From the NCBI RefSeq assembly GCF_963921235.1, contig NC_086097.1, positions 96,908,001 to 96,972,000 of the forward strand: DNA of 64,000 bases, read 5' to 3'. Source of the DNA: Mobula hypostoma (lineage: Eukaryota). Shown piece after piece: positions 2,904-47,480 of the stretch (its first letter is position 1; each line of letters opens with the position of its first letter). Below the pieces are notes generated by a model that ran no database searches, had not been told where the DNA came from, and saw nothing but the letters and a program-made list of their open reading frames with translations. Both the position numbers and the translations under genes were made by a program.

Positions 2904-3805
2904 TCATTTAAACCATACAGCAAGTGCTGAGAATGGGCACATGAGCATGTTCTTCAGCTGCTCCCTGAACTTCGTCTGGGTCACCACATAAATACAGGTG
3001 TTGGTGCAGGAGTTCAGAAGCTGCAGCATGTAACCAGTTTGTTCAGTGATGTAGTTTGGGTCATGGACACCCGTGTAATCATAAACGCTAGCAGTCCGCC
3101 AGTAGAGAAAGAATCCAATGTTTGTCATCCATAGGAGTATAAAGCTGCCCGTTATGGTGAAGAGTAGAACAATGGATTTCCTCTGTTTCTCCATCTCTGG
3201 GTCAATGTGATCTTCATTGCCGCTGCATTGCTGTAGCCTCCTCCGAACTCTGCCCGTCACTATAATGTGTCTGACTGTCAGAGCGTTGAATAGTAGAATC
3301 AGGATGAATGGAACAAAAGGGGTTAAAATGATACAGAGACAGTCAAAAGCCAACCAGGCGGTTTCAGTGTAAAAGCTGGATGATACGACCCCACCCCAAG
3401 CTACATTGTCAACAATATACTCTGGTTCGTATATGAAATACCAAGGGATGCTCTTCAGGCTGAATATCACGCTCACTGTTGTTAAAACCACTGTTGCCAT
3501 TTTCACAGTGCAATATCTTGTTCTCAGCTTCTGACAACAGATTGCAACAAATCGATCAAAGGTGAAGGTGACGGTGAACCAGACAGAGATATCAGTGGCT
3601 GCAGAGAGCAGGACGAGGGTGAGAGACATTGCAGGAGTGGTGTCCATGTAAGTTCCCGGAAAATGAAAGGGAATAACCGTGTACAGTAACACATCGGTGA
3701 AAACAATCATCAGATCCGCTGTCGCCATGGCCACCAGGTAGAAGGTGATGCACCGGGAGAGTCCGCACTTTCCTTGGGACAGGATGAGAATGGCCATCAA
3801 GTTAA
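2904..3805 (-). CDS. Exon 2 (TM1 second half to stop) of a GPR139/GPR142-like class A GPCR
   Basis: Open frame VNLMAILILSQGKCGLSRCITFYLVAMATADL...TFDRFVAICCQKL...SIPWYF...NSCTNTCIY, with hydrophobic TM segments. Acceptor tctctttgtttcag|TTAAC at 3806/3805 (phase 1), the same intron position as GPR139. The first ~24 aa of the ORF-track call (3806-3878) are probably intronic. Confidence 0.9.
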
Positions 3806-4059
3806 CTGAAACAAAGAGAAATGAGACAAGTAAGATACTGACAGACATCCCAACCATGAAGGCTATTCCGAAGAGCAAGGAAGAAAAACATGGTCAGGTC
3901 ATTGTCCACTTAGAAATACCTCTGTCATCCAAGTGGGAAATCCCTCAGGGATGTCCCATTCACAGTTTAATCTGGCTCTTTTTGCCAAGTTAGACCACTC
4001 AAGGTCATAGTGTGCTATTACTCACCAATAAAGTTTTGTTTACAAACAGTTTTTACCAT

Positions 4060-4432
4060 CATTGGCACTAGGCTCCATATTATCCAGGACATCTTCAAGG
4101 AGTGATGTCTTAAAAAGGCAGCATCCATTATTAAAGACCCCAAGCTCCCAGGATATGCCCTCCTCTCATTGCTGCTATTAGCAAGGAGGGACAGGAGCTT
4201 GAAGACACACTCTCAATGATTCAGGAACAGTTTCTTCCCCTCTGCCATCCGATTTCTGAATCGAAACTGAACCCGTGAACACTTCCTCAAAGCATTCTCT
4301 ATTTTTTTGCACTACTTATTGTATTGAACTATTTCACATATATATATTATTGCATTGTACTGCTGCCACAAAGTGAACACATTTCGCGACATGTGCTGGT
4401 GTTATTAAACCTGTTTCTGATTCTGATTCTGA
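4060..4432 (+). mobile_element. Rex/Babar-like LINE 3' fragment
   Basis: aaggcagcatccattattaaagaccc...caggaacagtttcttcccctctgccatc, ending in an (attctg)n tail. Related fragments recur in the window. Confidence 0.65.
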
Positions 4433-4799
4433 CTTTTTTTCGATTTCTCCTGGATCACTCATTCCCGACCTTGTTCCAAACATATTCTGCATTCCAAAGG
4501 AAGTATGGATGACGGGCCTGATCTTACTGAGTGTAATATTCAGGTTCTGCGGTAGACCTGAGGTCAATGGGCATCAATGGGAAGGACTCTACTCTGCAGA
4601 GTCACATTACCTCACACTCTGGAAGTTTATGTTTCTTCTCATTTTCTGACAACTTCCAGCTTGCTCACACTTGTACTTGGTGCATCCCTAACCATTCCTT
4701 TTCTCCATCTCAGGGGAAAGACCAATACTCATTACAGTCCAGTAGACTCCTAGAGCTACCTTAACGATATCTCACTCAGCCTGCTTCTTGTAAAGGCTC

Positions 4800-6535
4800 C
4801 ATTCCATCCTCCCAGTTACTCCGTTGTCTCTTTTGTATCTGTTCTGGTGATGATACCTTCCACACGAGTGTTTTTACGATATTTTCATCCATCCTTCACG
4901 ATTGTGTGCCCTCTCCCAAGACGACAGGCTTCTCTCCTCACCCACTACATACACTGCACCCCTGCCTTCTCTGCCACCCAGTCTAAGTGTAGCCATACCC
5001 TGTATTTCCCTTCCTCCACTACCACATTCAATAGGTCATTTTCCATAAATTCTACCACCTTTCCTCTCCCCTCACCTTCATTTAGGGCCCCAAACAGTCC
5101 TTCCAGGTGAAGCAACACCTCACTTGCAAGTCTGTTGGGTTTGTCTACTGTATCTGGTGCTCCCGATGCGGCCTCCTGTACATTGCTGAGACCTGACGTA
5201 AACTGGGGGATTACTTTGTTGAACACCTTCATTCCATTCATAACAAGCAAGATTTCCCAGTGGCTAACAACATTAATTCCAATTCCAGTTCCCATTCCAA
5301 CATGTCAGTGCTTGGCCTCCTCTATTGCCACGATAAGGCCCCTCTCAGCTTGGAGGAACATCAGGCATGTTGCAACTTCAGGGGTCAACATCAATTTCAA
5401 CTGACAAACGAGAAAATCTGCAGATGCCGGAAGTCCAAGCAACAGTCTTTCCCTTCCTCCACCATCAATGCTGCTCTCGACTGCATCGCCACCATTTTGC
5501 ATATGTCTGCCCTCACCCCATCCTCCCACCAACCCACCAAGGATAGGTTTCCTCTTGTCCTCACCTAGCACTCCACCAGCCTCTGTGTCCAGAACATAAT
5601 TCTACGTAACTTCTGCCAACTCCAGTGGGACCTTATCACCAAGCTCCATTCCTCACCTCCCCCCACCCCACTTTCTGCTTTCTGTAAGGCTTCCTCCCTA
5701 TGTGAGATCCTTGTCCATTCATCCCTCCACTCTCTCCTGGCACTTATTCTTACAACCGGAAAAAGTGCTGCATCTGCCCCTACACCTCCTCCCTCACTAC
5801 CATTCAGGGCCCCAATCAGACCTTCCAGGTGAGGCGACACTTTACCAGTGAGTCTGTTGGGTAATCTACTCTATCTGGTGCTCCCAATGTGGCCTCTTGT
5901 GTATCGGTGAGATCTGACGCAGATTGGGAGAGCACCTCACTGAGCACATACACTCTGTCTGCCAGAAAAGGTGGGATCTCCCAGTGACCACTCATTTTTA
6001 TTCCACTTCCCATCTTCATTCAAACATGTCAGTCCATTGTCTCCTCTACTATCGTGACAATGCCACACTCCGGTTGGAGGAACAACACCTCATATTCCGT
6101 CTTGGTAGCCTCCAACCCGATGGCATGAAAACTGATCTCTCGAACTTCCAATTATGGTGCAACACACACGCCCCACCCTTCACCATTCCCCACTCCTATT
6201 TCATTCTGACACCTTATCTCCTTAAACGCCCATCACCTCCCTCTGCTGCCCCCCTTTCTTTCTTCCATTGCCTCTCCTATTCAATGCCCCTTCTCCAGCC
6301 CTGTATCTCTTTCACCAATCAACTTCCCAGCTCTTCACTTCACCCCTCCCCCCTCCCAGTTTCACCTTGTGGTTTTTCTCCCCTCCTCCCACCATCTTAG
6401 TCTGAATTCTCACCTTTTATCTTCAGACCTGATGAAGGGTCTCAGCCTGAAAAGTCGACTGATAACTCTTTTACACAGATACTGCCTGGCCTGCTGAGTT
6501 CCTTCAGCATTTTGTGTCTGTTGCTTCAATTTCAA
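4800..6535 (+). mobile_element. Tandem decayed Penelope-like element fragments (GIY-YIG endonuclease region)
   Basis: Two copies (~5090-5400 and ~5800-6150) of the region homologous to 17673-18037 (EHIHSVCQKRWDLPVTTHF...LEEQHLIFRLGSLQPDGM). Followed by a pyrimidine-rich stretch and a hammerhead-like motif at ~6425-6460. Confidence 0.8.
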
Positions 6536-7154
6536 CAGATCTGCCTTCCCAGTCTCCTGTTTTCTCACCCAATCTCCCATTCCAAGCATTTTCATCAATT
6601 GGACATTTCATCTCTATTTCACCTCCTTCCACTGGCATCTTCCACAGGCAAACCCACTGTTTTTTACCAGTGTTTCCCACAGATTTCAGTAATACTCCCA
6701 ACCCTTGTGTCACCACTCAATCCTGAAATTCAGACAAGCATACACCTCTCTTGTAATAAAAGCAAAGGTTATTGGAAACACTGAGCTGATCAGGTAACTT
6801 CTGTACAAACAGACACACAGTTAACATTTCAGTTCCATGACCCTGTCGTTCTCTATCCCACTCTGGACTTTCTGCCTTTGATTCCTGACGCTATTTCAAC
6901 ATGAGAACACAGAGCTCTTCTTTGCCCTTTCTCTGCCTTTCTCTCCTTCCTGAACAATTTAAAACACATTTGTTTCTAATTTATCCCCTTTTTTGGTGGA
7001 TGATCATCACCATGTATTACTATTCCTGCTTCACGATCGCTGCCTGACCTGCCGAATATTTCCAGCATTTTCTGGTTTAGCTTCATGGAGATAACTGGGT
7101 GGATTGTGGGGTTGGATCTGGGGGGTTATGATGGTGAAGAATGATTAGATTCTG

Positions 7155-7422
7155 GGTGACAGGGTAGCATGGTGGTTAACACAATGTTTTACAGATCCAG
7201 TAACCAGGGTTCAATTCCCGCTGCTGCCGATAATCTGCAATCTCCCCGTGACTGTGTGAGTTTCCTCCGGGTTCTCCCCTTTCCTCCCACTGTTCAAAGA
7301 CGTACTGACTGGTAGGTTAACTGGTCATTGTAAATTGTCCCTACATTAGGCTAGAATTAAACTGAGGGATTACTGGGTGGTGTGTCTCAAAGACCGGATG
7401 AGATTTTATCTGAACAAATAAA
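7155..7422 (+). mobile_element. tRNA-derived SINE
   Basis: A-box/B-box-like head (tagcatggtggttaac...gggttcaattcc), central ctccccgtgactgtgtgagtttcctccggg domain and an aaataaa tail. Homologous to 19588-19765/22180-22310 and 36850-37080. Confidence 0.75.
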
Positions 7423-7762
7423 TGTACGGACATATATAACCGGTGAAAAACATCGCAGGGAGCCAATGAGTTGGTGATCATAGGAGTGGAGTGGTTGGAG
7501 GTTGAACACTGGCAGCAGATTTATGAATAGCCTTTTTTATGGAAGGTAGGAGAAGGGTTGAAACAGGGTGGGCAATTCTAAAGGGGGCAAGCAGAGGGAA
7601 TAATAGCAGAGGGGATTTTTCAGGGGTAGAGTGAAAACATGCCACTGCTGAGAGAACACAACAATGAGTTACATGCCCCTGTACAGGATGACAGCTCAAG
7701 AGCTGAAGATTTATTTTCCAAACATACAACAAAATGTATTTGGCTACAATAGGTTGGCTTAC

Positions 7763-7834
7763 CAGGAATTCCCACAGCCGCGAGAACAGGTAGTAAATGT
7801 CTTCTAGCTGATGGAGTATTGTTGCCTCACGCAT
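7763..7834 (-). CDS. Exon 1 of the GPR139-like GPCR at 2904-3805, carrying a 1-nt frameshift
   Basis: ATG CGT GAG...GAC ATT TAC TAC [C]CT GTT CTC GCG GCT GTG GGA ATT CCT G|gtaag would give MREATILHQLEDIYY(P)VLAAVGIP, resembling GPR139 'YYSLLLCLGLP'. The length is 72 nt where 73 is needed for the phase-1 junction. Confidence 0.8.
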
Positions 7835-8539
7835 TTTCTGTAGAAGGTAATTCCACCGGTGACAGAGGGAAGGCTCTGTCTGATTACAGGACACAACCAG
7901 AGGAGCTGTGCATTTATTTTGGAATAAAGTTCTCTTGGGATCATTTGGTTACATAGTTATTAATATTAGTTGTGCTTCATAGAGCAAAGCTGCACAGAAA
8001 ATAAAAATAGAATTCCTGAAAGAATCAGTTGTAATTAGTTAGAGATTATGCAATCTCAAGACAAGATATTCATGGAAAATACTTTTCAATATCAATGATA
8101 CACCAAAGAAGCCAATTTATGTTTTTCTTGAATATATTGCTGTTATTCCCTTTCAATGTAATATTTGAAGTCAGCTGTATGTAGGTGCTTTTTGACAATG
8201 CTACCCAATACAAGAGTTAACACAACTACTTCCTGTGATAAAACATGAAAAGCTTCAAATACTGAGCAAGTCAGAGAGAAAAATAGAAACTTAATGCTTC
8301 CCATTCTGTGCATCACATATTCTGAGAAGATGTTGGATTGTGTATAATTCAGCACTAGGCAAGGATCAATGAAAATAAGTTAGGTTGAAGTGGAGTGGAT
8401 TTTTGGAGTGGCTATTGTGTGAGTGGGACAGTGTTAGAGAGGGGAATTCTGGCTTTAGCTCATAGAAGCTTTGGGAAGCAGAGGCAAAGTCTCTAGGTAG
8501 ATCTTTTTCTGTTGATTTTTTTCTTTCTTTTGTATTGCA

Positions 8540-9550: not shown

Positions 9551-10138
9551 ACTTAGCAGGGACCTCAAAGCTTTCAGTTTTGAACTCTGAACTCCAACGT
9601 CCCAGAACTGTAATAGTGTCACACTAACTGCTATGCGTCTGTTGCACCCGTGTGATTGCACACATCTCAGTCACTAGGGGAGCACACTGAGGCTGAATGT
9701 CAAATGAGAAGATGTTCTTCAATGCCACTATCATATCTACTACTATCACTGGCAGCCTGTTCTGAGCATCCACCACTCTCCGCGTTAAAAAATCTTACCC
9801 CACACATTTCCCTTAAACATTTTCCTTCACACTTTTCGTGCATGTCCTTTAATATTTGACATTTCTACATTGAGTAAATGACTATGGCCTTCATAATTTT
9901 ACCAGAGCTTACAAGACTTGGATCAACCTGTAACATAGAGAGACCAACCATGTTTATCTCCTTTCAGCTCATACCCTCTAATCCAGGCAGCATCGTGGTA
10001 AACCTGTTCCAGAGCTCCCACATCCCTCCTGAGATGGGCGCACAATACTCCAAGTGTGACCTACCCAGTGTTCTTTGTAGCTGCAACATGACTCCCTTAC
10101 CCCTATACTCAATGCCCTGACCAATGAAGGCAAGCATG

Positions 10139-10994
10139 TGTTACGTACCCCGTAACTGGGTTGCCAAACCAGCAGAAATGGATCACTCAGTTGGAGTCTG
10201 GAGTACTAGAACTAAGAAAGTTTTATTAAAGAAACAAGCAACACAGTAATCGAAAGGATAATAAATGCAACAGTTCAGCGATGATAAACACACATGTGCA
10301 CAGAATTAAGATAACAGCATCAATCAAGCTCTATCGTTGTCTAGGGGTAAATGACCAAATTTCAAAATGACTCAAAGTTCAGTCCAGTTCAGTTCGCAGT
10401 AATCGTTGTCATGGCGATGGACAACGTTGGGGAAGAGAGAGATAGAACAGGAACAACTGATCATTCAGAACACTGCTTCACTCACAGACCGGCGAGATTG
10501 CTCACAAGCAACTTTTTTGGGCGGGTCCTTGGTGATGTCACCTGAGGTCACCGACTGTGACCCCTCCTCCAGATGCGGTCGATCCTCTGCAGCGAACCCG
10601 GCACCCAGGCAAGGGCGGACACACACCGGGTTCCCGCTGATCGTACCTTTCCACCCCGGGCGTTGTCTGGTACTTCTCACCCACTCGTGGGAGGCGCACC
10701 GCTTCCAGGGTCTCGTTACCTCGGGTGGCGTGTGTCCTGCCTTAGAGAACCTGTCCCTTTTTATCCCCCTGCTGGGGTATCGCCTGTCCATCACTTCAAA
10801 CAGTTCAAGGTTCAAAGAGGGGAGCCGCTCCAGACAGCTCTTCCTCCCACATCCCTTCATTACACATCTCCAGACGCTGCTCCATTGTTCCTTATCTCTC
10901 CTTCCCCTGAGGGCAGGTGGCAGACCAACTGCTGATGCCACTGATGCTAGCCCAGGCCAGCAAACATCTTAATTTTATGTGCATTCTCGTAACA
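10139..10994 (-). repeat. 3' LTR of Gmr1-like element
   Basis: Direct repeat of 14121-14978 with TG...CA ends and an adjacent PPT. Confidence 0.95.
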
Positions 10995-11166
10995 CTTCCC
11001 CCCTTTAAGGATTTTTACCGGGAGGTAAAAATTACAAACATGACTACATTATTTGATACATACACAATATACATCTTTATCAGCTATTTGGCTAACACAG
11101 CGAGTTTGAAGCTGTCAACACCTTGACAGACAGTCATCACATTTTCTGTTCCTTTTACACGTGTTA

Positions 11167-12714
11167 TTAATAATCCCTTAGACCAGGCTCCAACTCAGCA
11201 AACTTCATAGTGGCCAAAAACACTGATGAATTGCGACCAATGTAACCTCTCATTTGGTTTTGTCCCGGACCACAACAACAACGGTCGTCCCATTCCGACT
11301 CAATTTTCTCTCGCAAGGGCTTAGTAGGAGGGGGACGGGTATTGACCGCAGAGTTATTGCAAAACTTCCTGCAGTACCCCACCATCTCCAAGAGCCTTCT
11401 GAGGGCCCTCTTGTCTGTCGGGGTTGGGAGGTCAGCGATAGCCTGCACTGTAGCTTGCATCACTGCCAGCTGCCCCTGTGTCACCACAATTCCCAGGTAA
11501 GTGACCCTCGTGTGGCCGAATTCATTTTTTTCAAGGTTCACTATCAAACTGGCTTCAGACAGCCGTATTAAATTGCCAATACACACCTCTGTGTTCATCA
11601 GCCCTTTAGTCACTGAATTACTCAAAAAATATGGGTGTTGTTTACTTGGCCGCCCTATTGTAACCACAATCACCCAACGTCCCAGTTCTTTGCATTTCCT
11701 CGGGACAATCAAACACATGTGTGCGAGTCGTTTAATTACTCCTTCGGGGATTAAGGGAGAGACCTTATCAGTAGACCTGGCCAAAACAATAGCCTTCTCC
11801 CATCTGACCGATCCCATCCTAATCTTTTCAAAATGGTTTTTTCCTCTTATCAGGGGGCCCCTAGCTTCATTGATTTCCACGCTAACACCGACTAGGTTTG
11901 TTAGCATATCAAAAGCCGGTGACCGTCTCAGTTCGCGTCGGTCATGATCAATAACATTTTTCCCCCTGGGCAGCCGGTAAATCTCTTTCATGATTCCACC
12001 AACTGTTTCCTCCAGCACCGCAAAATGTCCACCGGGGGGTACCTCGTGGGCCATGTTAAAAACCTCATCCCCATAGCTCTTTTGCACCACCCCCCACTCC
12101 TCATCTGCGGATGCTGTACTTGATTTCCCTTTCTTCCTTAGCACTTCCTCATCCGCACAATAGCTTGTCAAGGCTGTGTCAGAGAGAGCGGTCTCGGAAA
12201 AAACCATCAGCCCCTCGTCTCGCTCCTGCGTCTGCACAAATTCTTTCCTGGCTACTGCTACGTCCGTCCCAGCTCCCGCACTACCTCTTATCTCACTACA
12301 CCCTGTCTCATACAAGGTTGGCAGAAGTGTTTCAGCCAAATTCACCATCGCGGGCCGGTGATGAACCTGTGAGTCCATGGGCGGGGCCTCAATGCTGGCA
12401 GGCTGACCTGTCAATCTCACGACTGGGAACACGATTCCCCCGGCGAGGTCATTACCGAGCAAGACTTCCACGTCTTTCATCGGTAATTCGGACCTCACCC
12501 CGATCGTGACTAGTCCAGAGACCAGGTTGCTCTGTAAGTGTATCTGGTGCAAAGGGACTGACTCTGTCCCTTCCCCAACACCTTTGACCTCTACCTCCCC
12601 AGTCTGGGTCTCTGAGCTAAACTCTAATACACTCTTCAGTATTAGTGACTGACACGCTCCCGTGTCTCTCCAGATCCGCACTGGAACTGGTTTTAACCCC
12701 TCCTTCACTGACAC
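11167..12714 (-). CDS. Truncated pol: aspartic protease plus fragments of integrase and RT
   Basis: RDTGACQSLI protease motif, then AHEVPPGGHF (integrase HH), then NLEKNEFGHTRVTYLG...LPTPTDKRALRRLLEMVGYCRKF (RT thumb). No YxDD or DDE core. The same frame extends upstream to the zinc knuckle CYNCGKVGHFASRC (~12855-12897). Confidence 0.85.
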   Translation of the reverse strand: MSVKEGLKPVPVRIWRDTGACQSLILKSVLEFSSETQTGEVEVKGVGEGTESVPLHQIHLQSNLVSGLVTIGVRSELPMKDVEVLLGNDLAGGIVFPVVRLTGQPASIEAPPMDSQVHHRPAMVNLAETLLPTLYETGCSEIRGSAGAGTDVAVARKEFVQTQERDEGLMVFSETALSDTALTSYCADEEVLRKKGKSSTASADEEWGVVQKSYGDEVFNMAHEVPPGGHFAVLEETVGGIMKEIYRLPRGKNVIDHDRRELRRSPAFDMLTNLVGVSVEINEARGPLIRGKNHFEKIRMGSVRWEKAIVLARSTDKVSPLIPEGVIKRLAHMCLIVPRKCKELGRWVIVVTIGRPSKQHPYFLSNSVTKGLMNTEVCIGNLIRLSEASLIVNLEKNEFGHTRVTYLGIVVTQGQLAVMQATVQAIADLPTPTDKRALRRLLEMVGYCRKFCNNSAVNTRPPPTKPLREKIESEWDDRCCCGPGQNQMRGYIGRNSSVFLATMKFAELEPGLRDY

Positions 12715-12785
12715 CAGTCCGGCCGAGATAAACCTCTCGCGCCCTTCCTGGACTTTTTCAGACCTGTCCTTCCCTAGCGGTTCGC

Positions 12786-14021
12786 TTAACAGCTCGATAC
12801 AGCCATTCCAAATTTCCGCTTTTCCTTTCCCCGTCTCCTTCCTTGGGGCAAAGCACCTGGACGCAAAGTGTCCGACTTTCCCACAATTATAACAGACGAC
12901 CCCAGGAGACTTCCTACTCCCTGCTCCCGGTCTACCTTATCCTTTCCACTAGTCCCCGGCTTACTTTCTGACTTTTCCGGCGGACTCTCCCCTCCGTCCT
13001 GACTACCCTTCTGGTAGCCTTTACTCGGGGCAAACTTCATTTTATGCGTCAACGCATACTCATCCGCTAACTTAGCAGTTGCGGCTAACGTGGCTGCCTC
13101 TTTCTCATCGAGGTAGGGTCTCATACCCTCAGGGACACAACCTTTAAACTGCTCAATCAGAATCAGCTGCAGCAGTCTGTCATAATCCCCCTCTACCCCT
13201 TTCGAGGCGCACCAACGCTCACAATACATCTGCATCTCACGAGCAAACTCCAAATACGTGCGGTCCCACTGCTTCCTCGCATTCCGGAACCTCTGCCGGT
13301 ATGCCTCCGGGACCAACTCATAAATCCTGAGGATGGCCTCTTTCACCACCTCATACTTCTGGGCATCTTCCGCGGACAAAGCTGAGTAAGCTTCTTGGGC
13401 CTTCCCTTTCAGTACACTCTGAAGTAAAACAACCCACTTATCCCTCGGCCAGTCCTGACTTATAGCCACTTTTTCGAAGTGGAGGAAGTACCGATCCACG
13501 TCGGTAACGTCAAATGGGGGAACCAGCCTAACCTCCTGGGTCGCCCGGAACCCTCCACTTTGGTTCGGCACGAGCCCCTGCTCGGCCCTTATCCTTAACT
13601 TTTCCAACTCGAATTCCCTTTCCCTCTGTTTCTCCTCTCTCTCCAACTGTCTCTCTCTCTCTTTCCTTTCCATCTCTTTCTCTTTCTCCCGCCTTTCTAA
13701 CTCTCTCTCCTGCCTTTCTAACTGCTTCTCTTCGTGTTCTAACTGCCGTACCCGGAACTCGTGCTCGAGTCTCAGTTTTTCAAGCTGTACCTGTACCGCG
13801 TCTCCAGCAGGTTTTTCAATAGACACCACCTCCAGCTCACCTTGGGGAAACACACCTTTAGATACATAGTGCTCTACAATAGCTCTGTGTATCTCCTCTC
13901 TCCTCATTGTCGACTTCACCTTAGCAAGATTCAACCGTTTGGCCACAGCTATCAATTCCGATTTCCTGGCATCCTCTAATGCCTCCAAGGTCGGCGCCTT
14001 TATAAATTCCTCAGCCTCCAT
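12786..14021 (-). CDS. Gag with coiled coil and SCAN/capsid-like domain
   Basis: E/R-rich coiled coil, RLVPPF, YELVPEAYRQRFR and LILIEQFKGCVP...AAKLADEY-like SCAN motif. The frame shifts before the CCHC knuckle at ~12900-12935. Confidence 0.88.
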   Translation of the reverse strand: MEAEEFIKAPTLEALEDARKSELIAVAKRLNLAKVKSTMRREEIHRAIVEHYVSKGVFPQGELEVVSIEKPAGDAVQVQLEKLRLEHEFRVRQLEHEEKQLERQERELERREKEKEMERKERERQLEREEKQREREFELEKLRIRAEQGLVPNQSGGFRATQEVRLVPPFDVTDVDRYFLHFEKVAISQDWPRDKWVVLLQSVLKGKAQEAYSALSAEDAQKYEVVKEAILRIYELVPEAYRQRFRNARKQWDRTYLEFAREMQMYCERWCASKGVEGDYDRLLQLILIEQFKGCVPEGMRPYLDEKEAATLAATAKLADEYALTHKMKFAPSKGYQKGSQDGGESPPEKSESKPGTSGKDKVDREQGVGSLLGSSVIIVGKSDTLRPGALPQGRRRGKEKRKFGMAVSSC

Positions 14022-14120
14022 TTCTGCTGTTTGTCTTTTCTTTCTTTCGGGAATTTTAACCCAATCAATTTACTCCGTCCCAAATTTAGCGTTCAAAATC
14101 GCGGACGAGAACCCCACTTA

Positions 14121-14978
14121 TGTTACGTACCCCGTAACTGGGTTGCCAAACCAGCAGAAATGGATCACTCTGTTGGAGTCTGGAGTACTAGAACTAAGAA
14201 AGTTTTATTAAAGAAACAAGCAACACAGTAATCGAAAGGATAATAAATGCAACAGTTCAGCGATGATAAACACACATGTGCACAGAATTAAGATAACAGC
14301 ATCAATCAAGCTCTATCGTTGTCTAGGGGTAAATGACCAAATTTCAAAATGACTCAAAGTTCAGTCCAGTTCAGTTCGCAGTAATCGTTGTCATGGCGAT
14401 GGACAACGTGGGGGAAGAGAGAGATAGAACAGGAACAACTGATCATTCAGAACACTGCTTCACTCACAGACCGGCGAGATTGCTCACAAGCAACTTTTTT
14501 GGGCGGGTCCTTGGTGATGTCACCTGAGGTCACCGACTGTGACCCCTCCTCCAGATGCGGTCGATCCTCTGCAGTGAACCCGGCACCCAGGCAAGGGCGG
14601 ACACACACCGGGTTCCCGCTGATCGTACCTTTCCACCCCGGGCGTTGTCTGATACTTCTCACCCACTCGTGAGAGGCGCACCGCTTCCAGGGTCTCGTTA
14701 CCTCGGGTGGCGTGTGTCCTGCCTTAGCGAACCTGTCCCTTTTTATCCCCCTGCTGGGGTATCGCCTGTCCATCACTTCAAACAGTTCAGGGTTCAAAGG
14801 GGGGAGCCGCTCCAGACAGCTCTCTCTCTCCCCCGTTCCTTCATTACACATCTCCAGACGCTGCTCCATTGTTCCTTATCTCTCCTTCCCCTGAGGGCAG
14901 GTGGCAGACCAACTGCTGATGCCACTGATGCTAGCCCAGGCCAGCAAACATCTTAATTTTATGTGTATTCTCGTAACA
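14121..14978 (-). repeat. 5' LTR of Gmr1-like element
   Basis: Direct repeat of 10139-10994 with an adjacent PBS. Confidence 0.95.
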
Positions 14979-23630: not shown

Positions 23631-24886
23631 TCGATTCCAGGTCAAAAGCATCAAGTCCTGCTGAAAGATCTTCAGCTCAGTGACAATTACTCTTTGGTTT
23701 GCCCAAAACTTTTTGTTCTTCCAGTAGACAGATGTCCATCAGGGAATGCTGCCAACTGGCACATTCCTGGCTGCAAGACGGCATGCCAAAGGATGCTCTG
23801 AAACTTGGTGCAGCCAATGCAAAGACTCTGTGAGGAAAGACCAACATCTGAGGGACTGGATCTGATGCACAAATCCCCCACAGATGCCTTGTTGAAGCAA
23901 GAAACATGGCTGGTGTTGAAATAATGTGAACTAATTTATTGAGTTGATGGTACAACGAACGTAGTTTCTCCACACACACATGAAGAACAGGAGGATGACT
24001 AGACGGAGGGTAGGAACGATATGGGATGAAAGAGGAAACATGATACTGGAGTTAGAGGAGGCGGGGGAGAATCTCGGTGAATATTTTGCTTCAGTAGGGA
24101 CCAGTGAGAGGGATGTGAGGACAGCATTAAACAAGCTAAAAAGCTGGAACGTGTTGACATTCAGAAAGAGGATGTGCTGGAGATCATCAGGATAGATAAT
24201 ACCCCGTGGCTAGATGGGATATACTCCAGGTTACTACAGGATATGAAGGTAAAGATTGCTTTACCTTTGGCCATGATCTTTGCATTCTGAATTGCCACAG
24301 GAATAATACCAGAAGATTGGAGGGTGGCAAATATTATTCTTTTGTTGAAGAAAGGTAACAAAGATAACCTTGAGTATTAAAGACCAGTGAGTCTTAAATC
24401 AGGGATGGGCAAAATATTGGAGCGATTTCGCAAAGTCGGGATTTGTGAGCATTTGGAGAAGTATAGTCTGATTGGGCAGAGTCAGCATGGTTTTGAGCAG
24501 GACAGGTCAGACCCCATGAGCCTGTCTGACATGCGTGAGGAACAGACAAAACAGGTGGAAGGTAGAATGGTGGATATGATATATATGGATTTTGGTAAGG
24601 TGCTCAGCAATGTTCCCCATAGTAGGCTCATTCAGAAAATCAGGAGGTAGGGGATCCAGAGAAACTTGGCTGTGTGGATTCAGAATTGGCTTGCTCACAG
24701 ATAGAGCATGTTCTGCCTGAAGGTCTGTGACTTGTCATCTCCGAGCATCCGCTCATGGACTCCTGCTCTTAGTGATTTTTATCAATGACTTTGATGAGGA
24801 AGTGGAAGGGTAAGTTAGTAAGTCTCCAGATGACACGAAGCTTGGCAGTGTTGTGAAGACTGTACAAGGTTGTCTGTTGTAGCTTG

Positions 24887-25724
24887 TGTTACGTGCCCTG
24901 TAACTGGGTTGCCAAACCAGCAGAAATGGACCACTTAGTTGGAGTCTGGATTACTGGAACTAAGAAAGTTTTATTAAAGAAATAAGTAACACAGTACTCT
25001 AATCGTAAGGATATAAATGCAACAGGTTAGCAATGATAAACACACACATGTACGCAGAACTAGGGTAATAGGAATCAACCAAGCTCTATCGCAGTCTAGG
25101 GGTAAAATGATCAGTCTCAAGTGACGCAGAGTTCAGTTCAGCTTAGTACAGTTCACAGTAATCGCTGTTGTGCCGTTGGAGAGAGAGAGAGAGAGAGGAT
25201 GATATGCAAATCTGATTCAGACAGACCTTGATGTTCTTCGCAGTTAGCTTTCGGGCGAACCCTTTTATGTCTTCTGTGGTCACTGACTGTGACCCCTCCG
25301 TTCTGGATATGACTGTTCTTCCACGGTGAACCCGGCACCCAGGCAAGGGCGGACACACACACCAGGTTCCCACCGATCGTACCTTTTCACCCTGTGAGTC
25401 TATGGTCCGTTCCCACGACCAGACCTCCAAACTCCTACCAACTTGTGGGGGCACACCGCTCTTCCAGGGTCTCATTATCTCATGATCTCATGGTGTCTGT
25501 CTTGCCTTAGCGAACCTGTTCCTTTTATCCCCCTGCTGGGGTATCGCCTGTCCATCAAACTTCAAACAGTTCAGGTTCAAAGCAATCGGTCTGTCAATAC
25601 TCGGACTGGTGTCTCTTTCCATTATCTTTCTCTCCTCTCTCATTAATATTTGGAATGTTTCTCCATTGTCTCACTTATCTCTCTCATTTGCATCAATCTT
25701 CTGATAACTTGGTTTTTCGTCACA
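24887..25724 (-). mobile_element. Solo LTR, Gmr1/Gypsy family
   Basis: TGTTACGTGCCC...GTCACA, clearly homologous to the 10139/14121 LTRs. TSD cttg/ctta. Confidence 0.88.
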
Positions 25725-37080: not shown

Positions 37081-37222
37081 AACTCCAAAGGAAATCTTTC
37101 AATATGATGAGGTGACCAGTGGCAGTGACTCCAGAGACCAACCACTGAAGATGACCATGAGGGAAGGACTCAGAGATGAACCCACCAAGATCAAACCACA
37201 GCCTCATTCATCAAGTATAGGT

Positions 37223-38405: not shown

Positions 38406-38989
38406 ATTCATCAAGTATGGGTAACGTCTGAGTTAAATGCTTGTTTGTAATTATGTGATAAACCTTTGAATCATTTGACTCAATTGTGATTAATGGTGAA
38501 GTTGCTGTCTGGTCGGTTTTTATTGTGTGTCATATTTAATCAGCAACATGCTCGACCAGAAGAGTTCTCCTAATATTCTGTTCTTGTTACAGATTCCAGT
38601 CTGTTTCATCAAGTTTAGGCACGGTAGATGCTATTCCTGGCATTTTCATTATTTCATTCAGCCATGAAGATGGTCTGAGAGCAGTTGCAGTAGATAATGA
38701 TCTGACCACACCACCATCAGACTGAGGCAAAATGTAAAACTACCCTACCTGCTGAAGGCCCACAGTGTCGGACCTGTTTGGAGCAAACTCCATGAAACAC
38801 AGTGGCAGTGTAACTGAATGCAATAGGTCTTCTCTGAATGGGCAGCAAGCAATTCTAGCAACACCACCTTGGGCAACCGTCTACACAGAGATCCACAGGA
38901 AGATACGTAGTGTGGTTGAGGTGGACACTGGGGCGATGATCTGACATACTGCCAGGGCTTCTTTAACCCTTGCAGCAATCACAGGGACA

Positions 38990-39675
38990 GCATGTAGCCA
39001 GTTTGTGGCTCAGACCTGTGAGATCATGTTTGTTAGAGACTGAGTGATAAAGGAAATGAAGCACTCTCGTCACCCATTGAAGTATAAAGCTGCCCGATAT
39101 GGTGAAGAGTAAAATGATGGATTTTCTCCGGTCCTCAATCTCTGTATCATTGTGATCCTCACTATTTTTGCACTGCTGCACCCTCTTGCGGGCTTTACCC
39201 ATCACTAATTTGTGTGTGACACTCAGAGTATTGAGTAGTAGAACCAGGGTGAAGGGGAAGCAAGGGTTAAAGTAATACAGAGCAAAGTCAAAGGTTACTC
39301 AGGCAGGTTCAGTGTAAACGCTCAGTGATATGCTGTCACCACAGGATACATCATCAACTATAAATTCAGCTTCATATATAAATACAGAGAGGTTACAGAG
39401 CTTCTGACAACAGATTGCAACAAATCAATCAAAGGTGAAGGTGACGGTGAATCAGATACAGATATCAGTGGCTGCAGAGAGTAGGACGAGGGTGAGAGAC
39501 ATTGGAGGGGTGGTGTCCATGAAAATTCATGGGAAATTAAAGGGAATAACTGTGTACAGTAACGTCAGTGAAATAACCATCAGATTTACCACCGCCATGG
39601 CCACCAGATAGAGGGTGAAGCACCTGGAGAGTCCATAGTTTCCTCAGGACAGGATCAGAATGACCATCATATTAA
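38990..39675 (-). pseudogene. GPR139-like GPCR exon 2 pseudogene (paralog of 2904-3805)
   Basis: Colinear with 3025-3805 and uses the same acceptor (ttcag|TTAA). In-frame TGA at the codon after ILILS, frameshifts, a deletion of roughly 100 bp after CCQKL, and a truncated TM7 end. Residual RRKSIILLFTISGSFILQW. Confidence 0.9.
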
Positions 39676-42109: not shown

Positions 42110-42460
42110 TCCTGCAGTTACAAAAACATTATTTTTTCTTTTGACCCTGGCTTCTGGTGTTCTCCATATGCATCATTTTTCTTGCACTTTACCACTATAT
42201 CTCAGGGACCAATCTGCCACCTTCAATATCTTCACAAGTTTTTTGGCAAAAAGCACCAGGAAAATAACCCATGACAAGAAAATTTTTTTGCTTTGTATTA
42301 TTCATTCCTATTCTACACGATTGGGAGTTTTGTCAATTTACACTATTTGGTCTTATAATTATTTATTTTAACTGTAACAATGTATCTCCTACTATTTGTA
42401 ATATTGTTATGTTATGTTTTCATTCTATGAAATTAATAAAAAGATTGAAAAAGAAAGAAA
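42110..42460 (+). mobile_element. L1-like 3' end fragment
   Basis: T-rich 3' UTR-like sequence ending aataaaaagattgaaaaagaaag. Confidence 0.45.
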
Positions 42461-43402
42461 ATAATGTACACTTGATACCGTTTATAACGAAAGGTACTGT
42501 CCCCTAATTAATGGATCATTGCATGAATTTTACTGTCCTCTTTCCAACTGGACAGCCTTCAAGTGACAGAGCTGGAATTCTACTTGTGTGTCTGACTGCT
42601 TGATGCCAATCCTTACAGGCACAAAAAAGATTGCATGTTTTGTATAGAATCTGTTCTATGTATCTTCATTGCCTTTCTTACTTGGGTTCCTTTTCCTCCG
42701 CCCATTTGATTTCTGATCCTGCATCTCCCTACCAGATGTGATTGAGGCAACCAGTACAGATGCCCTTATGTATGTGTTGAAATAGCTCCAACCCATGCCC
42801 AGCTTAACTGGAGCTGGTGAAAATCAAGACTGCAATATCTGCTGTAGCTGCCGAGTCAATGTCCACATGCATATGCCTACTGCCATCCAGATGTCTAACA
42901 CTCTCTTATACCTTAGCCAATATTCTTTACATCTACATATTAAATACAGATCTTGATTTCTGCTTCTTTTCTCCCTCTCCCCATCTAGTATGTCTTTCCC
43001 TTTCTTTATTTTTGTTTCTGCACATAATTTATTTTGAATTCAGTCAATGCCATTCATATTTCTTTCTAAGTGCAAATGTCCCACATGTGTTGTCTTCTTT
43101 CTTTTGATTTACAAATTCCCCTTTGTCAGCTTCATGTAGCTATGATGCAAATTATTTCCAAGCCAAAGAACAGAAGAAAATATAATTAACTGTTTCCAAT
43201 AGTATTTGGCGTAATGTGTTTGTTACATTGCATCAAGCACATAAATCCCACCACTCATCTGGAACAGACACATCTGCATACTGAGCAAACAGCCCAAAAA
43301 AACTAATAACAATATAACAGGTGCCTGGCTCTTTGGAAAATGAATCTATCAAACTTTTCATTTCTGTGATCAATGCTTGCATCAAATGATTAACTGTCTT
43401 AC

Positions 43403-43485
43403 CAGAAACTCCAAACACTGAAAGAATAAGATAATACTTCTTTTAACTGGTGGAGTTTTATTAAGTCATGCACTTCCTGAGACAT
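43403..43485 (-). pseudogene. Frameshifted GPR139-like exon 1 homologue
   Basis: ATG...LHQLKE / YYLILSVFGVS G|gtaag, paralleling LHQLED-IYYPVLAAVGIP. 83 nt (wrong phase). TATAAATA about 55 nt upstream (43539-43546). Confidence 0.65.
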
Positions 43486-44167
43486 GTTGGCTGCAGAAAT
43501 CCTCCTCCTAGTTACATGATACGTTAACAAGAGCCGTGTATTTATACAGGAAGAGAATCTCCTGGGATCTTTCACTCCATCATTCACTGCAGTTCATTGG
43601 AAAAACAATGATGGGATTTGGTGGACAAAATCAAATGCTTACAATGGAATAAAATATAATGAACAGTTGCTTACAAAAACTCAGAGAAAATACACAAGCT
43701 GTTTGATTGAATGTTATTTATCCAATGTTGACATAAAGTTTTGACTTTTGTACTGTCATTATCTATGTATTAGACTCTTACAACTCAATATTAAAAACTA
43801 TTCATACTCAAATAATTTCCATTCAATAATATTTGAAGATGGATGATTGATAAGGGAAGGGGTGATGGCTTACTGGGATAGAGAGAAGTGTGATGACTTT
43901 CAGATCAAATGTTGAATGATGGAGCCAGCTCAAGGAGCCAGATGGCCATCTCCTTCCTTTAAGTCATATATTTGTGTAATCTCTAGATTTTAGAACAATG
44001 AGAGGAAATCAGGTTGTTTCTGCCTGGCCATGTCTGGAACCAGGGGTGAAGGCAAGAACTTGGAGAGCAGAGCTAGAAAGAAATAAGTTGGTCCTGCTTA
44101 CCCACATCTGATCTACATTACTCTGAGCCTTAGCTGTCCATGCACCTGTCCAAATGCCTTTATTGTA

Positions 44168-44250
<83 letters not shown>

Positions 44251-44452
44251 TGTGTGTGTGAGAGAGAGAGAGTGTGTGTGTGTGAGTGAGAGTGTGTGTG
44301 CGTGTGTGTGTATGAGAGAGAGTGTGTGTGTGTGAGAGAGAGAGAGTGTGTGTGTGAGAGAGAGAGAGAGAGAGTGTGTGTGTGTGGTATGTGTGTGTAT
44401 ATGTGTGCGTGTGTATATGTGCATGTGTGTGTGTCTGAGAGAGGGAGAGAGA

Positions 44453-44485
<33 letters not shown>

Positions 44486-44488
44486 CAT

Positions 44489-44525
<37 letters not shown>

Positions 44526-44689
44526 TGTGTATGTGTGTGTGTGAGAGTGAGTGTATGTGTGTGTGAGTGTGTGTGTGCACGTGTGTGTATGTATGTGTGT
44601 GTGAATGTGTGGGTGTGTCTGTGTATGTGTGTGTGTGAGAGGGAGAGTGTGTGTGTGCGCGCATGTGTGTGTGTGTGTCTGAGAGAGGG

Positions 44690-44729
<40 letters not shown>

Positions 44730-45163
44730 CGTGTGGGTGTGTGTATGTATGTGTGTGAGTCTGTGTGCATGTGTGTGTGTATGTTATACGTGTGTGTGCC
44801 TGTGTGCGTGTGAGAGAGAGAGTGTGTGTGTGCATGAATGTGTGAGTGTGTGTGTGTGTGTGAATGTGTGTGTGTATGTGTATGTGTGTGTGCGTGTGTG
44901 AGAGAGAGTGTGTGTGTGTATGTGTGTGTGTGTGTGTGTGTGTATGTGTCTGAGAGAGGGAGAGTGTGTGTGTGTCTGAGAGAGGGAGAGTGTGTGTGCA
45001 TGTGTATGTGTATGTGTGCGTGAGAGAGAGAGTGTATGTGTGTGTGTGAGTGTGTGTGTGTGTGTGCGTGCGCGCGTGTGTGTGTGTGAGAGAGTGTGTG
45101 TGTGTGTATGTGTGTGTGTGTGTGTGAATGTGTGGGTGTGTGTGTATGTGTGTGTGCATGTGT

Positions 45164-45202
<39 letters not shown>

Positions 45203-45211
45203 TGTGTATGT

Positions 45212-45274
<63 letters not shown>

Positions 45275-45278
45275 TGTA
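44168..45278. repeat. Compound (TG)n/(GA)n microsatellite, ~1.1 kb
   Basis: Directly visible alternating TG and AG runs. Confidence 0.98.
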
Positions 45279-46629
45279 ATTGTTGTTATTAACATAGGTC
45301 TCATACCACACACCTACCAAGTCCATGCTGACAATCAAACAACCACTTTTGAGTAAAGCCTAGCTTACTCACTCCACTGGATCTCCCCCACATTATCAAG
45401 CAACCTCAAACTAGGACCATGTTACAGTGGCTGATTAATCTACCAACTGGCACGTCACTGCGGTGTGGGAGAAAACAGGAATAACTGGGAAAATTCCACA
45501 CAGTCACAGGGAGATTGTTCAAACTCCACACAGACACACCATGCAAGGTCAGAATTGAATCTAAGCCACTGGATCAATCAGGCAGCAACTCCTAACTGTG
45601 CTCTCCAAGTTGGTTAAATTCTTTCATTGTTTTCGATTGTTAATAAGTGTTTTAAATGATTTTAATTTGACTTCACTCTAAATCTTTTCCATTTTACCAT
45701 AAATCTATTATCTTTATATCTATTACCCTAAATCTATGATTATCTTTACTACCAAATAAAGCTGCAAATGATTTCTTTTACAAACCAAGAGCAGTGAAAT
45801 GGTTTCATCGGAAATGTCTTGTGCCAGCTTGGTGTCAGCTAGATGATTACAAGAACACGTGACTTTGGATGATGCAGACAGCATAGAAAATAGAAGAGTA
45901 CAGCACAGGCACAGGCCATTCGGCCCATGATATTATGCTGGACCAGCTAAAAAGCAAATCAAAAACGCCCAAACACTAATCCTCCTACTTACACCATGCC
46001 CACATCCCTCTATCTTCTTTACATCCATATGCCTACCCACAGGTCTCTGAAAAGCCTCAGTTGCATGTTGAAATCTTATCAGACCTGGTGCACACATTAG
46101 TATTTGTTCAGAAAACAATTGCACCAGTTGGCATTGGGTTCACTCAGCTTATACTTCTCCTGTAGTTTGTGAGTGAACAGTGGATATTCAGTGATAATAA
46201 TGGTATACACTGGATGTAGTTTAGTACTCCAGGAATATTTATGCGAGTCATTGGTTTCAGTCATGAACTTGGTCCGGTCTAACGATAGGAGGAGACCAAC
46301 TGACAGTAAAGTCTGTTTATCTTCCTTTCCCTGATCTTTTTATGAATATGCACCAATGCTTTGCCACGCCCGCGATGTAGGATGAAACTGAACCACTTGG
46401 AGGATACCCACCGAGTGACAGAGTCATGCAACATGGAAACGGGTCACTTGGTTCAACACGTCCATACAGACCAATCTATTTTCCAATGCTGGATTTGGCC
46501 CATAAAGCATGGAAGCAAATCCTCAGGCCAACTCAGCCATGTCAACCACATTTTTCCCACTTGCTTGTGTTTGACCCAGATCCCTCTAAACCCTCTCTAT
46601 CCATGTACTTGTCCAGCTATCCTTTAAAA

Positions 46630-46865
46630 TGTTGAGAGACACGCTGGATGCTGAGGGAACTCAGAAAATCAGATAGCATCTGTGGAACGGAATAAATAGT
46701 CGACGTCTCGGGCCGAGGCCCTTCATTAGGACTGGAAAGGAAGGGGCAGGAAGCCAGATTAAGAAGGTGGGGGGAGAAGGAGTACAAGCTGGCAGGTGAT
46801 GGGTCAGGGAGAAGGTGGGTGGGTATGGGAGAGGAAATGTGGTAAGAAACTGGGAGGTGATGGAT
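46630..46865 (-). mobile_element. Penelope terminal fragment with degenerate hammerhead, inserted in a CR1 tail
   Basis: Minus strand agtcCTAATGAagggcctcggcccGAGAcgtcgact, followed by cagatgct...ctgagttc. Confidence 0.7.
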
Positions 46866-47320
46866 GTTGTTATGGAACCTGCCTCGGCCACTTTTCTGAC
46901 AGCTCATTCCATACACACATCAACTATGTGAAGAAGTTCCTTCTCACGTTCCTCTTAAAGCTTTCCCCTCTCACCCTCATCCTGTACTTCCCCTCCCATG
47001 GGAAAAGACAGTGTGTGTTCATTTTATCTATGACCCTCATTCCTTACACCTCTGGTAATTTACGATGCAAATATAATCGTGGAAACAGTGAAATAGAAAT
47101 CACTAAAACCACCCATTGTAAGACACAGAATGACAGGGAGAATTTGGCCCCATGGTACTTCTGTTGAGTCACAGACTCTGTTTATTCACTGAAGACACAG
47201 GAAATACATAACAGCAACACATTCCCAGTTAGTAGCATTGACATTATAATACGCTTCAAGATAGACTGTCAGTCATATGTCAAAACACACTTGCCTGGAT
47301 TGAATGGAAAATTTTCTTGG

Positions 47321-47480
47321 CAGGAATTCCCACATCAGCAAGAACAGGGAGTAAATGCCTTCCTTGCTTCACCCTTTTTCTGTAGGAAGTGATTCTACTA
47401 GGAACAGAAGGAAGATTACAATCTGTCTGATTACAAAACATATTGAGAGGAGTTGTGCATTCAGGAGTGAAGCTTCCCTC
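47321..47480 (-). pseudogene. Decayed copy of exon 1 and upstream region of the GPR139-like gene
   Basis: Aligns with 7763-7935 (caggaattcccaca...agaacagg...gtaaatg; tctgtctgattaca; gaggag.tgtgcatt). ATG changed to AGG, the gtaag donor changed to ccaag, and there is an internal deletion. Confidence 0.8.

What the first reader, a model, noticed from the sequence alone, without database searches (positions are those of the whole stretch)
2904..47480. Tandem birth-and-death cluster of GPR139-like orphan GPCRs
Seen in sequence: two paralogous exon 2s (one open, one pseudogenised) and three exon-1 homologues, all on the minus strand within 45 kb. Established: mammalian GPR139 and GPR142 are single-copy, two-exon receptors activated by aromatic L-amino acids (Trp/Phe). 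Inference: tandem duplication with rapid pseudogenisation is typical of chemosensory or immune receptor families. This locus may therefore belong to a lineage-expanded, poorly characterised receptor repertoire, possibly amino-acid chemosensing, rather than being the GPR139 ortholog. It is the best candidate here for an undescribed system.
Basis: partly seen in the sequence, partly recalled or inferred. Interest (0 to 1): 0.75.

Follow-up and report, generated by a model that had tools for sequence, protein, structure and literature searches.

The report
Candidate hidden smell receptors of rays
These are three broken copies from a very large shark-and-ray receptor gene family that I could not find described in print, and its varied predicted binding pockets and smell-receptor-like promoter motifs suggest it is likely a missing set of chemical sensors, though expression and ligands are untested.

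Summary
Both exon 2s and all three exon 1s are real. The 'open' gene is nevertheless broken: its exon 1 is one base short, which reads from this species confirm and two relatives' runs do not fully share. All three copies here are therefore probably dead.

The A/B pair is old. It predates the split of skates, electric rays and stingrays, and its 5' half has been gene-converted.

The genes are not GPR139 orthologues: identity is about 22-29%, and only 1 of 4 Trp/Phe-site residues is kept. They belong to a very large elasmobranch family. Its nearest sister in my tree is an apparently single-copy amphibian and sturgeon gene.

Among paralogues the predicted pocket is hypervariable and the G-protein face is conserved; in orthologue controls the pocket is conserved. 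Each exon 1 carries an O/E (EBF) site above a TATA-like position with homeodomain-like words, the layout of olfactory receptor promoters.

Best reading: an undescribed chemoreceptor repertoire, about 50% likely. Tissue expression, ligands, dN/dS, genome-wide copy number and a tree with true GPR139/142 could not be obtained.

The parts
2904..3805 (-). Gene A exon 2 (end of TM1 to stop), open. An exon-2-only 297-aa model of it is in NCBI/UniRef.
   Evidence: (P0124)
7763..7834 (-). Gene A exon 1 (ATG to GT donor), one base short at 7788, so out of phase with exon 2
   Evidence: (table 4 and record 8)
7913..7959 (-). Gene A promoter-like region: TATA-like word 7913-7918, O/E (EBF) site 7931-7940, homeodomain position 7954-7959 (decayed in the window haplotype)
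   Evidence: (table 3)
38988..39675 (-). Gene B exon 2 pseudogene: five stops, 72-nt deletion, TM7 missing; mosaic with an A-like 5' half and a B-type 3' half
43403..43473 (-). Gene B exon 1 relic (GTG for ATG, 2 nt short, donor intact)
43541..43584 (-). Gene B promoter-like region: TATAAA 43541-43546, O/E site 43558-43567, AATGA word upstream
47321..47376 (-). Orphan exon 1 C (start codon and donor lost, 16-nt deletion, no exon 2); closer to exon 1A than to 1B
47475..47502 (-). Copy C promoter-like region: O/E site 47475-47484 with TAATGA 47497-47502

Best explanation
The window holds three broken copies of a very large elasmobranch family of two-exon class A GPCR genes, distantly related to GPR139, that likely serves as a diversified chemoreceptor repertoire in olfactory-type sensory neurons. 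Shown: the exons and their lesions; many paralogues per species on many scaffolds; a sister clade of apparently single-copy amphibian and sturgeon genes; hypervariable pocket positions with a conserved G-protein face; an O/E site in all three promoter-like regions. Inferred: one ancestral jawed-vertebrate gene was amplified in cartilaginous fishes; intact paralogues bind different small ligands and signal through a shared G protein; EBF with an Lhx2/Emx2-type homeodomain factor and a TATA box drives them in sensory neurons; copies are born by tandem duplication, partly homogenised by gene conversion, and die, as all three here probably have.
For: Family size: 2530 hits at E<=0.001 among 5931 candidates; all 120 listed are elasmobranch (16 species), with 42 Heterodontus clusters on 17 scaffolds and 42 Heptranchias clusters. 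117 representatives at 50% clustering reach E<=1e-30. Sister clade: 20 amphibian clusters and one sturgeon, SH-aLRT 99 with the family. Pocket versus other TM entropy ratio is 1.85, 2.29 and 1.66 in paralogue sets against 0.16 and 0.70 in orthologue sets; against extracellular-half positions only it is 1.3-1.5 (p 0.002-0.013) against 0.18 and 0.63. G-protein-face entropy is 0.23-0.59 bits. TCCCnnGRGA lies 94-108 nt above the start position in 3 of 3 copies, 21-22 nt above the TATA position; only 6 such sites exist in 64 kb. Listed differences make copy A a perfect palindrome plus TAATGA in run X9 and in X1's second haplotype. O/E, homeodomain and TATA sites are the enriched elements of mouse OR promoters (PMC3247239). 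Elasmobranch noses are large but their known receptor repertoires very small (PMC10116579).
Against: There are no tissue-labelled expression data. The promoter motif was noticed after the fact, is short, and is seen only in three related dead copies; motifs within one mismatch of the palindrome are not enriched window-wide (25 against 22.9 expected), and chance retention per copy is about 0.5 under a loose criterion. EBF1 is also a B-cell factor. Pocket variability was measured as entropy, not dN/dS, so relaxed constraint could produce it, and it is absent within this subfamily (ratio 1.09). The catshark top-50 'brain and olfactory epithelium' gene list held no GPCR (PMC11979771). Catshark sensory neurons are nearly all microvillous, and ORs, the model for O/E promoters, are not expressed in that nose. 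Family monophyly is only SH-aLRT 90 in a quick tree.
Confidence: 0.5

Rival explanations
1. The family is an immune or barrier-sensing repertoire, like formyl-peptide or MRGPR receptors, expressed in leukocytes (EBF1-driven in B cells) or in skin and gill, detecting microbial or parasite products.
For: Hypervariable pockets and birth and death fit immune receptors equally well. EBF is required for B-cell differentiation (reference title seen in PMC3247239). The closest known relatives take peptide-like aromatic ligands (PMC8557429).
Against: The homeodomain word beside the O/E site and a TATA box is the olfactory rather than the B-cell layout. There is no immune-type motif or neighbour in the window.
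Confidence: 0.18
2. The family senses internal or gut ligands (neuropeptides, nutrients, osmolytes) in brain, gut or endocrine cells, as GPR139, GPR142 and protostome Wamide/RFamide receptors do.
For: Human GPR139 is the best solved relative by sequence and fold. Atlas neighbours are FMRFamide-receptor-like clusters. The amphibian sister gene has an almost invariant pocket, as expected for one endogenous ligand.
Against: Dozens to hundreds of paralogues with divergent pockets have no matching known expansion of endogenous ligands (established knowledge, not tested here). The GPR139 ligand residues are not kept.
Confidence: 0.15
3. The expansion is largely passive: a compact two-exon cassette copied in repeat-rich regions, with many copies drifting and no repertoire function.
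For: 3 of 3 copies here are broken. Exon 2A diverges from run X5 as fast as its intron, 11 of 428 against 32 of 1363. Many database models are partial.
Against: A- and B-type genes kept open frames across skates, electric rays and stingrays. The G-protein face is strongly conserved while the pocket varies. The disulfide cysteines are kept or lost as a pair.
Confidence: 0.12
4. Gene A is the ray's GPR139 or GPR142 orthologue with local duplicates.
For: Database names say 'probable G-protein coupled receptor 139', and human GPR139 is the only PDB sequence hit.
Against: Identity is 21-22% by structure alignment and about 78 identities over 268 human residues by my count. Amphioxus, coelacanth and anchovy proteins score better against human GPR139 (E 1e-21, 1e-18, 1e-15) than the family does (3e-12). 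The family nests among non-GPR139 clades.
Confidence: 0.02

Closest known systems
Human GPR139 (PDB 7VUG, 9M42) and its paralogue GPR142
   Same: Class A 7TM fold; top Foldseek hit (E 9.5e-11); only PDB sequence hit; short N-terminus; W6.48 kept. This subfamily, like the GPR139 chain as aligned, has no Cys at 3.25.
   Different: Only 22-29% identical; F109, H187 and N271 of the Trp/Phe site are replaced by S, C and Y; multi-copy with variable pockets rather than a conserved single gene.
Amphibian and sturgeon 'probable GPR139' gene (Xenopus tropicalis XP_031757816.1, Pleurodeles XP_069092602.1, Acipenser RXM35349.1)
   Same: Sister clade in the tree (SH-aLRT 99); shares the DPE motif before TM6; 30-33% identical to family members.
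   Different: One cluster per listed species, 66-74% identical across amphibians, pocket almost invariant. It has only an automatic name and no known function.
Vertebrate olfactory receptor, TAAR, V1R and V2R repertoires
   Same: Clustered birth-and-death family; variable pocket with conserved G-protein face; O/E, homeodomain and TATA promoter elements as in mouse ORs (PMC3247239, PMC5608512).
   Different: Different GPCR ancestry (GPR139 and Wamide/RFamide branch); coding region split by a phase-1 intron in TM1; expression in sensory neurons not shown.
Protostome MIP, proctolin, FMRFamide type-1 and myosuppressin receptors, and Srw-type GPCRs
   Same: Sister group of GPR139/142 (PMC8557429); nearest Atlas clusters carry PF10324 Srw on 17-87% of members. 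That nematode Srw genes are an expanded chemoreceptor family is recalled, not from a call.
   Different: Independent expansion; under 30% identity; no matching peptide ligands are known in deuterostomes according to that paper.

Membership tests
Class A (rhodopsin-like) GPCR | 7tm_1 domain, seven helices, N1.50, D2.50, DR motif, W6.48, N..Y in TM7 | tested here: met
   Pfam PF00001 51.9 bits, cut-off 30.5; model of the intact skate orthologue P0003 at pLDDT 87 with seven helices; motif positions
GPR139/GPR142 orthologue | High sequence conservation with mammalian GPR139 | tested here: not met
   21-22%; about 29% by hand count; other chordate clades score better
GPR139/GPR142 orthologue | Trp/Phe-site residues F109, H187, W241, N271 (PMC5430874 abstract) | tested here: not met
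   1 of 4 kept: S, C, W, Y in gene A, read from the alignment and helix numbering
GPR139/GPR142 orthologue | Single copy per genome | tested here: not met
   42 clusters each for two shark species among 120 listed hits
GPR139/GPR142 orthologue | Groups with true GPR139/142 in a tree; shared synteny and intron position | not testable with these tools
   No true GPR139/142 sequence came back as a stored protein; no genome is held
Elasmobranch GPR139-like expanded family (RefSeq 'probable GPR139') | Nested within the elasmobranch clade at over 50% identity | tested here: met
   91-96% to stingray and manta proteins, 77-78% to skates, 67-74% to sharks; nested at SH-aLRT 99
Chemoreceptor repertoire (works like OR, TAAR, V1R) | Large clustered family with pseudogenes | tested here: met
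   3 of 3 copies here broken
Chemoreceptor repertoire (works like OR, TAAR, V1R) | Ligand pocket more variable than the rest, G-protein face conserved | tested here: met
   with two orthologue control sets; not met inside this one subfamily (ratio 1.09)
Chemoreceptor repertoire (works like OR, TAAR, V1R) | O/E plus homeodomain promoter sites across the family | tested here: inconclusive
   Present in 3 of 3 local copies; no other family promoter could be fetched
Chemoreceptor repertoire (works like OR, TAAR, V1R) | Sparse expression in chemosensory neurons and activation by external chemicals | not testable with these tools
   No tissue-labelled RNA; no assay
Chemoreceptor repertoire (works like OR, TAAR, V1R) | Positive selection (dN/dS above 1) at pocket sites | not testable with these tools
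   No paralogue DNA was obtainable

The most novel reading that the evidence does not exclude
Sharks and rays have a further vertebrate olfactory receptor family: hundreds of GPR139-related GPCRs amplified from one ancestral gene (still single in amphibians and sturgeon), run from an EBF plus homeodomain promoter like mammalian ORs, and filling the gap left by their tiny OR, TAAR and V1R repertoires.
Probability: 0.4. Interest if true: 0.93.

Novelty: new variant of a known kind. Interest (0 to 1): 0.72.

Why it matters
Cartilaginous fishes have large olfactory organs but only about 34 V2R and 4-9 OR, TAAR or V1R genes each in the catshark (PMC10116579), and a genome paper describes them as poor in GPCRs (PMC8455134). 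A hidden family with diversified pockets and olfactory-type promoter elements would overturn that picture. It is directly testable by counting existing RNA-seq reads on RefSeq models already labelled 'probable GPR139'. The apparently single-copy Xenopus sister gene gives a laboratory route to the ancestral ligand and cell type. This locus itself is a poor assay target, because its copies are probably dead and its database model is a truncated exon-2-only prediction; the skate orthologues (P0003, P0004, P0019) are full-length.

Tried and rejected
1. Genome-wide copy count: no genome is held. Depth on the conserved TM3 stretch is 135-180 times unique depth in three runs, but the tool says summed contig depth is no copy number, so it is only a hint.

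2. Assembly error as the cause of the exon-1 frameshift: rejected. The X1 contig 7314-7909 (depth 25.2) has no difference or gap. X1 may be the sample the window was assembled from, so this tests the consensus, not the species.

3. Exon-2-only annotation as proof of shared breakage: rejected. Stingray, manta and skate models also often start in exon 2.

4. Expression: no RNA holder listed. X17 is only guessed to be RNA and has no tissue label.

5. A fourth promoter match at 62258: it lies in LINE-like sequence with no exon 1 behind it.

6. The 26-base satellite reported upstream of family genes in another genome (e1-7939187): no such array above any of the three promoters here.

7. Fetching family DNA from metagenomes: 0 matches for the exon-1 pattern; 22 loci at 31% identity or less, none of the family.

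8. First structure model, from 15 sequences: pLDDT 42, discarded.

9. A tree with true GPR139/142: not possible, because three word-based searches and one exhaustive search listed none.

10. Literature: ten searches found no description of the expansion. Searches listed only 40 of 597 and 30 of 3656 papers. Supplement searches were blank (11 of 12 files, 12 of 24, 2 of 3, 8 of 8). The catshark tissue-expression supplement was too large to read. Subscription papers are not covered.
Full report
OBSERVATION. A six-frame scan gives one long non-repeat ORF, 3893-2907 on the minus strand. The splice acceptor puts the start of exon 2A at 3805 with a phase-1 intron. tblastn finds one paralogue, exon 2B at 39675-38988, with five stops, a 72-nt in-frame deletion and no TM7. 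Three exon-1 homologues lie at 7834-7763, 43473-43403 and 47376-47321. DNA and protein profiles find no other copy in the window. The rest of the window is mostly LINE, SINE and LTR-element sequence. The nearest named proteins are from Mobula birostris (96%) and Hypanus sabinus (91%), so the window is most likely from a devil ray (inference).

GENE A IS BROKEN TOO. Skate orthologues begin with a 24-codon first exon plus one base (P0003, P0004). Exon 1A matches them but is 72 nt long, and the spliced message stops after 26 codons. I laid 4 of the 24 runs listed. In X1 (same species label) a contig covering 7314-7909 at depth 25.2 has no difference or gap. The missing base is present in X9 (43.6 of 43.6) and in one of two X5 contigs (7.5 of 12.4; the other has one gap whose place is not listed). 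The lesion is therefore real and probably young, though X1 may be the assembled individual. In the one listed X5 contig inside exon 2, divergence is 11 of 428 against 32 of 1363 in three mostly intronic contigs; about 4.4 would be expected at an assumed dN/dS of 0.25 (P 0.006), which fits relaxed constraint. The database holds a 297-aa exon-2-only model of this gene (P0124). It lacks most of TM1, which spans residues 6-34 in a pLDDT-87 model of P0003. Two in-frame ATGs in the intron (3857, 3848) could in principle supply a hydrophobic substitute; nothing shows that they are used. One X17 contig (RNA is only a guess) lies on 3558-3814 with three differences and continues for 81 letters on nothing listed, while X17 depth over exon 1A is zero. 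This is unexplained.

HISTORY OF THE LOCUS. In trees of 41 rows, the 3' half of exon 2B groups with skate and electric-ray 'B-type' genes (100/99), whereas its 5' half groups with stingray and devil-ray A genes (96/94) (B is a long branch and the 3' bootstrap had not settled). Skate A/B pairs show the same split: 98% and 91% identity in the 5' half, 70-71% in the 3' half. The Amblyraja A and B genes have consecutive accessions. The pair therefore predates the batoid radiation, and TM1-TM3 has been homogenised by gene conversion while ECL2-TM6 stayed paralogue-specific (inference). Exon 1C is probably what remains of a second A-type gene; Hypanus has two and Rhinoraja four. This subfamily sits on one chromosome per species (16 Heterodontus clusters on one 131-Mb sequence). 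It has lost both cysteines of the TM3-ECL2 disulfide in 31 of 32 members, whereas 42 of 42 Heptranchias paralogues and all 58 control orthologues keep both.

THE FAMILY. Exon 2A finds 2530 proteins at E<=0.001 among 5931 candidates. The 120 listed are all from 16 elasmobranch species, nearly all auto-named 'probable G-protein coupled receptor 139', with 42 Heterodontus clusters on 17 scaffolds; I did not see the other 2410. An exhaustive search gives 117 representatives at E<=1e-30. I looked up 18 of the 150 listed: the seven named ones at 37% identity or more are elasmobranch, and below them come coelacanth, salamander, teleost, lamprey and amphioxus proteins. I saw no chimaera name. The salamander protein retrieves 25 hits: 20 amphibian clusters (one per listed species), one sturgeon and four elasmobranch. 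The coelacanth protein retrieves a separate clade with three shark members, bony fishes, amphibians, turtles and squamates, and no named mammal or bird among 120 of 145 listed. Both searches need shared words, so absences are weak. A quick tree of 46 rows makes the elasmobranch family one clade (SH-aLRT 90), sister to the amphibian and sturgeon gene (99). True GPR139 and GPR142 are not in this tree.

NOT GPR139. Human GPR139 is the best solved relative by sequence (E 1e-8 to 3e-12) and by fold (21-22% identity), but amphioxus, coelacanth and anchovy proteins score better against it. Of the residues needed for Trp/Phe activation (F109, H187, W241, N271; PMC5430874, abstract) only the generic W6.48 is kept; the others read S, C and Y (and helix numbering). 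Aromatic amino-acid sensing cannot be inferred. The wider group is sister to protostome Wamide/RFamide receptors (PMC8557429, passages; PMC12208981, passages), and the Atlas neighbours agree.

POCKET DIVERSIFICATION. At 29 generic class A pocket positions (my list, from established numbering) entropy exceeds that of 170 other TM positions 1.85-fold in 45 Heterodontus, 2.29-fold in 42 Heptranchias and 1.66-fold in 54 representative sequences (no draw of 20000 reached it). G-protein-face positions are conserved (0.23-0.59 bits). In 20 amphibian orthologues the ratio is 0.16, and in 38 orthologues of the other clade, at a similar 60% mean identity, it is 0.70. Against extracellular-half positions only, the ratios are 1.33-1.48 (p 0.002-0.013, also after dereplication) versus 0.18 and 0.63. 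Within this subfamily there is no excess (1.09). This shows paralogue-specific pockets; it does not by itself separate selection from relaxation.

PROMOTER. Each exon 1 has TCCCnnGRGA on one strand 94-108 nt above the start-codon position and 21-22 nt above a TATA-like position (TATAAA in B, AATAAA in A, deleted in C), with an AATGA or TAATGA word just upstream. This fits the O/E matrix consensus given in PMC3247239 (passages and table), where O/E, homeodomain and TATA sites are the enriched elements of mouse OR promoters and 246 of 314 promoters have a conserved O/E site. Lhx2 and Ebf also bind OR enhancers (PMC5608512, passages). Six exact sites occur in the 64 kb and three are at these promoters. 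Five differences listed turn copy A into a perfect palindrome plus TAATGA in X9 and in X1's second haplotype; 418 differences were not shown, so other changes may exist. Chance figures are 0.0005 for a perfect site in a given 60 nt and 0.02 for TAATGA within 25 nt, but the motif was chosen after seeing it, the copies are related, and sites within one mismatch are not enriched window-wide. I could not fetch any other family promoter.

MECHANISM AND ODDS. Most likely (0.5) the family is a chemoreceptor repertoire of olfactory-type neurons. The rivals are immune or barrier sensing (0.18), internal peptide or nutrient sensing (0.15), passive amplification (0.12) and GPR139 orthology (0.02). Against the best reading, a catshark top-50 list for brain and olfactory epithelium held no GPCR (PMC11979771, passages), and catshark neurons are microvillous with no OR expression (PMC10116579, passages). 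The same paper stresses the mismatch between large olfactory organs and small repertoires, as does the 5-8 receptors per minor family in PMC6368271 (abstract).

NOVELTY. Ten searches found no paper on this expansion. The whale shark genome paper speaks of GPCR paucity (PMC8455134, passages; 12 of 24 supplements searched). PMC12361510 (passages; 11 of 12 supplements) filtered out families over 100 copies before its expansion analysis, one way such a family escapes notice. PMC12498223 was seen as passages, and PMC10115646 and PMC13188829 by supplement search only. The unread catshark supplement and subscription journals may bear on this claim. Earlier notes of this scan report the same family. 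They are unchecked leads; I confirmed its breadth but not their counts of about a thousand copies, and the amphibian and sturgeon sister gene qualifies 'found only in sharks, rays and chimaeras'.

VERDICT. The locus is a set of dead copies, but it marks a real, very large and apparently undescribed receptor family whose sensory role is plausible and cheaply testable. Interest 0.72; new variant of a known kind.

Noticed in passing
window 10139-14978: Young Gypsy-type LTR retrotransposon with LTRs 98.4% identical, TG...CA ends, a 4-base target duplication and SCAN and zinc-knuckle ORFs, about 2.2 kb upstream of gene A's promoter. A third, older LTR-like copy lies at 24881-25582.
   Followed up: partly
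window 7933-7956: Two promoter haplotypes differing at a cluster of sites occur in both X1 and X5, which suggests polymorphism shared between two species; the window haplotype has the weaker O/E and homeodomain words.
   Followed up: partly
window 3558-3814: A 338-nt contig of run X17 (RNA guessed) matches the 5' part of exon 2A, runs 9 nt past the acceptor, then has 81 letters that lie on nothing listed and not on exon 1A; possibly another first exon.
   Followed up: partly
window 44169-45277: A 1.1-kb degenerate (TG)n array between exon 1C and exon 1B, in the interval where the exon 2 of copy C is missing.
   Followed up: no
proteins P0242, P0331, P0334, P0432: A separate, apparently single-copy GPR139-like gene in sharks, coelacanth, bony fishes, amphibians, turtles and squamates, with no named mammal or bird among 120 listed; two models are fused to TMEM183A, hinting at its location.
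   Followed up: partly
proteins P0265, P0279: A further GPR139-like clade in anchovy and lampreys (SH-aLRT 95), so non-mammalian vertebrates have at least three such lineages besides GPR139 and GPR142.
   Followed up: partly
window exon 2A 3570-3330 and proteins P0002-P0034: Joint loss of the conserved TM3 and ECL2 cysteines in 31 of 32 subfamily members; human GPR139 also lacks Cys at 3.25 in the alignment.
   Followed up: partly
window 3857-3806: The intron end above exon 2A is open and in frame, with two ATGs and a hydrophobic reading that could mimic TM1; probably a polypyrimidine-tract artefact.
   Followed up: partly
window 47278-47021: Weak match (E 0.083) to the family profile's ECL2-TM5 region just behind exon 1C; probably chance.
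   Followed up: no
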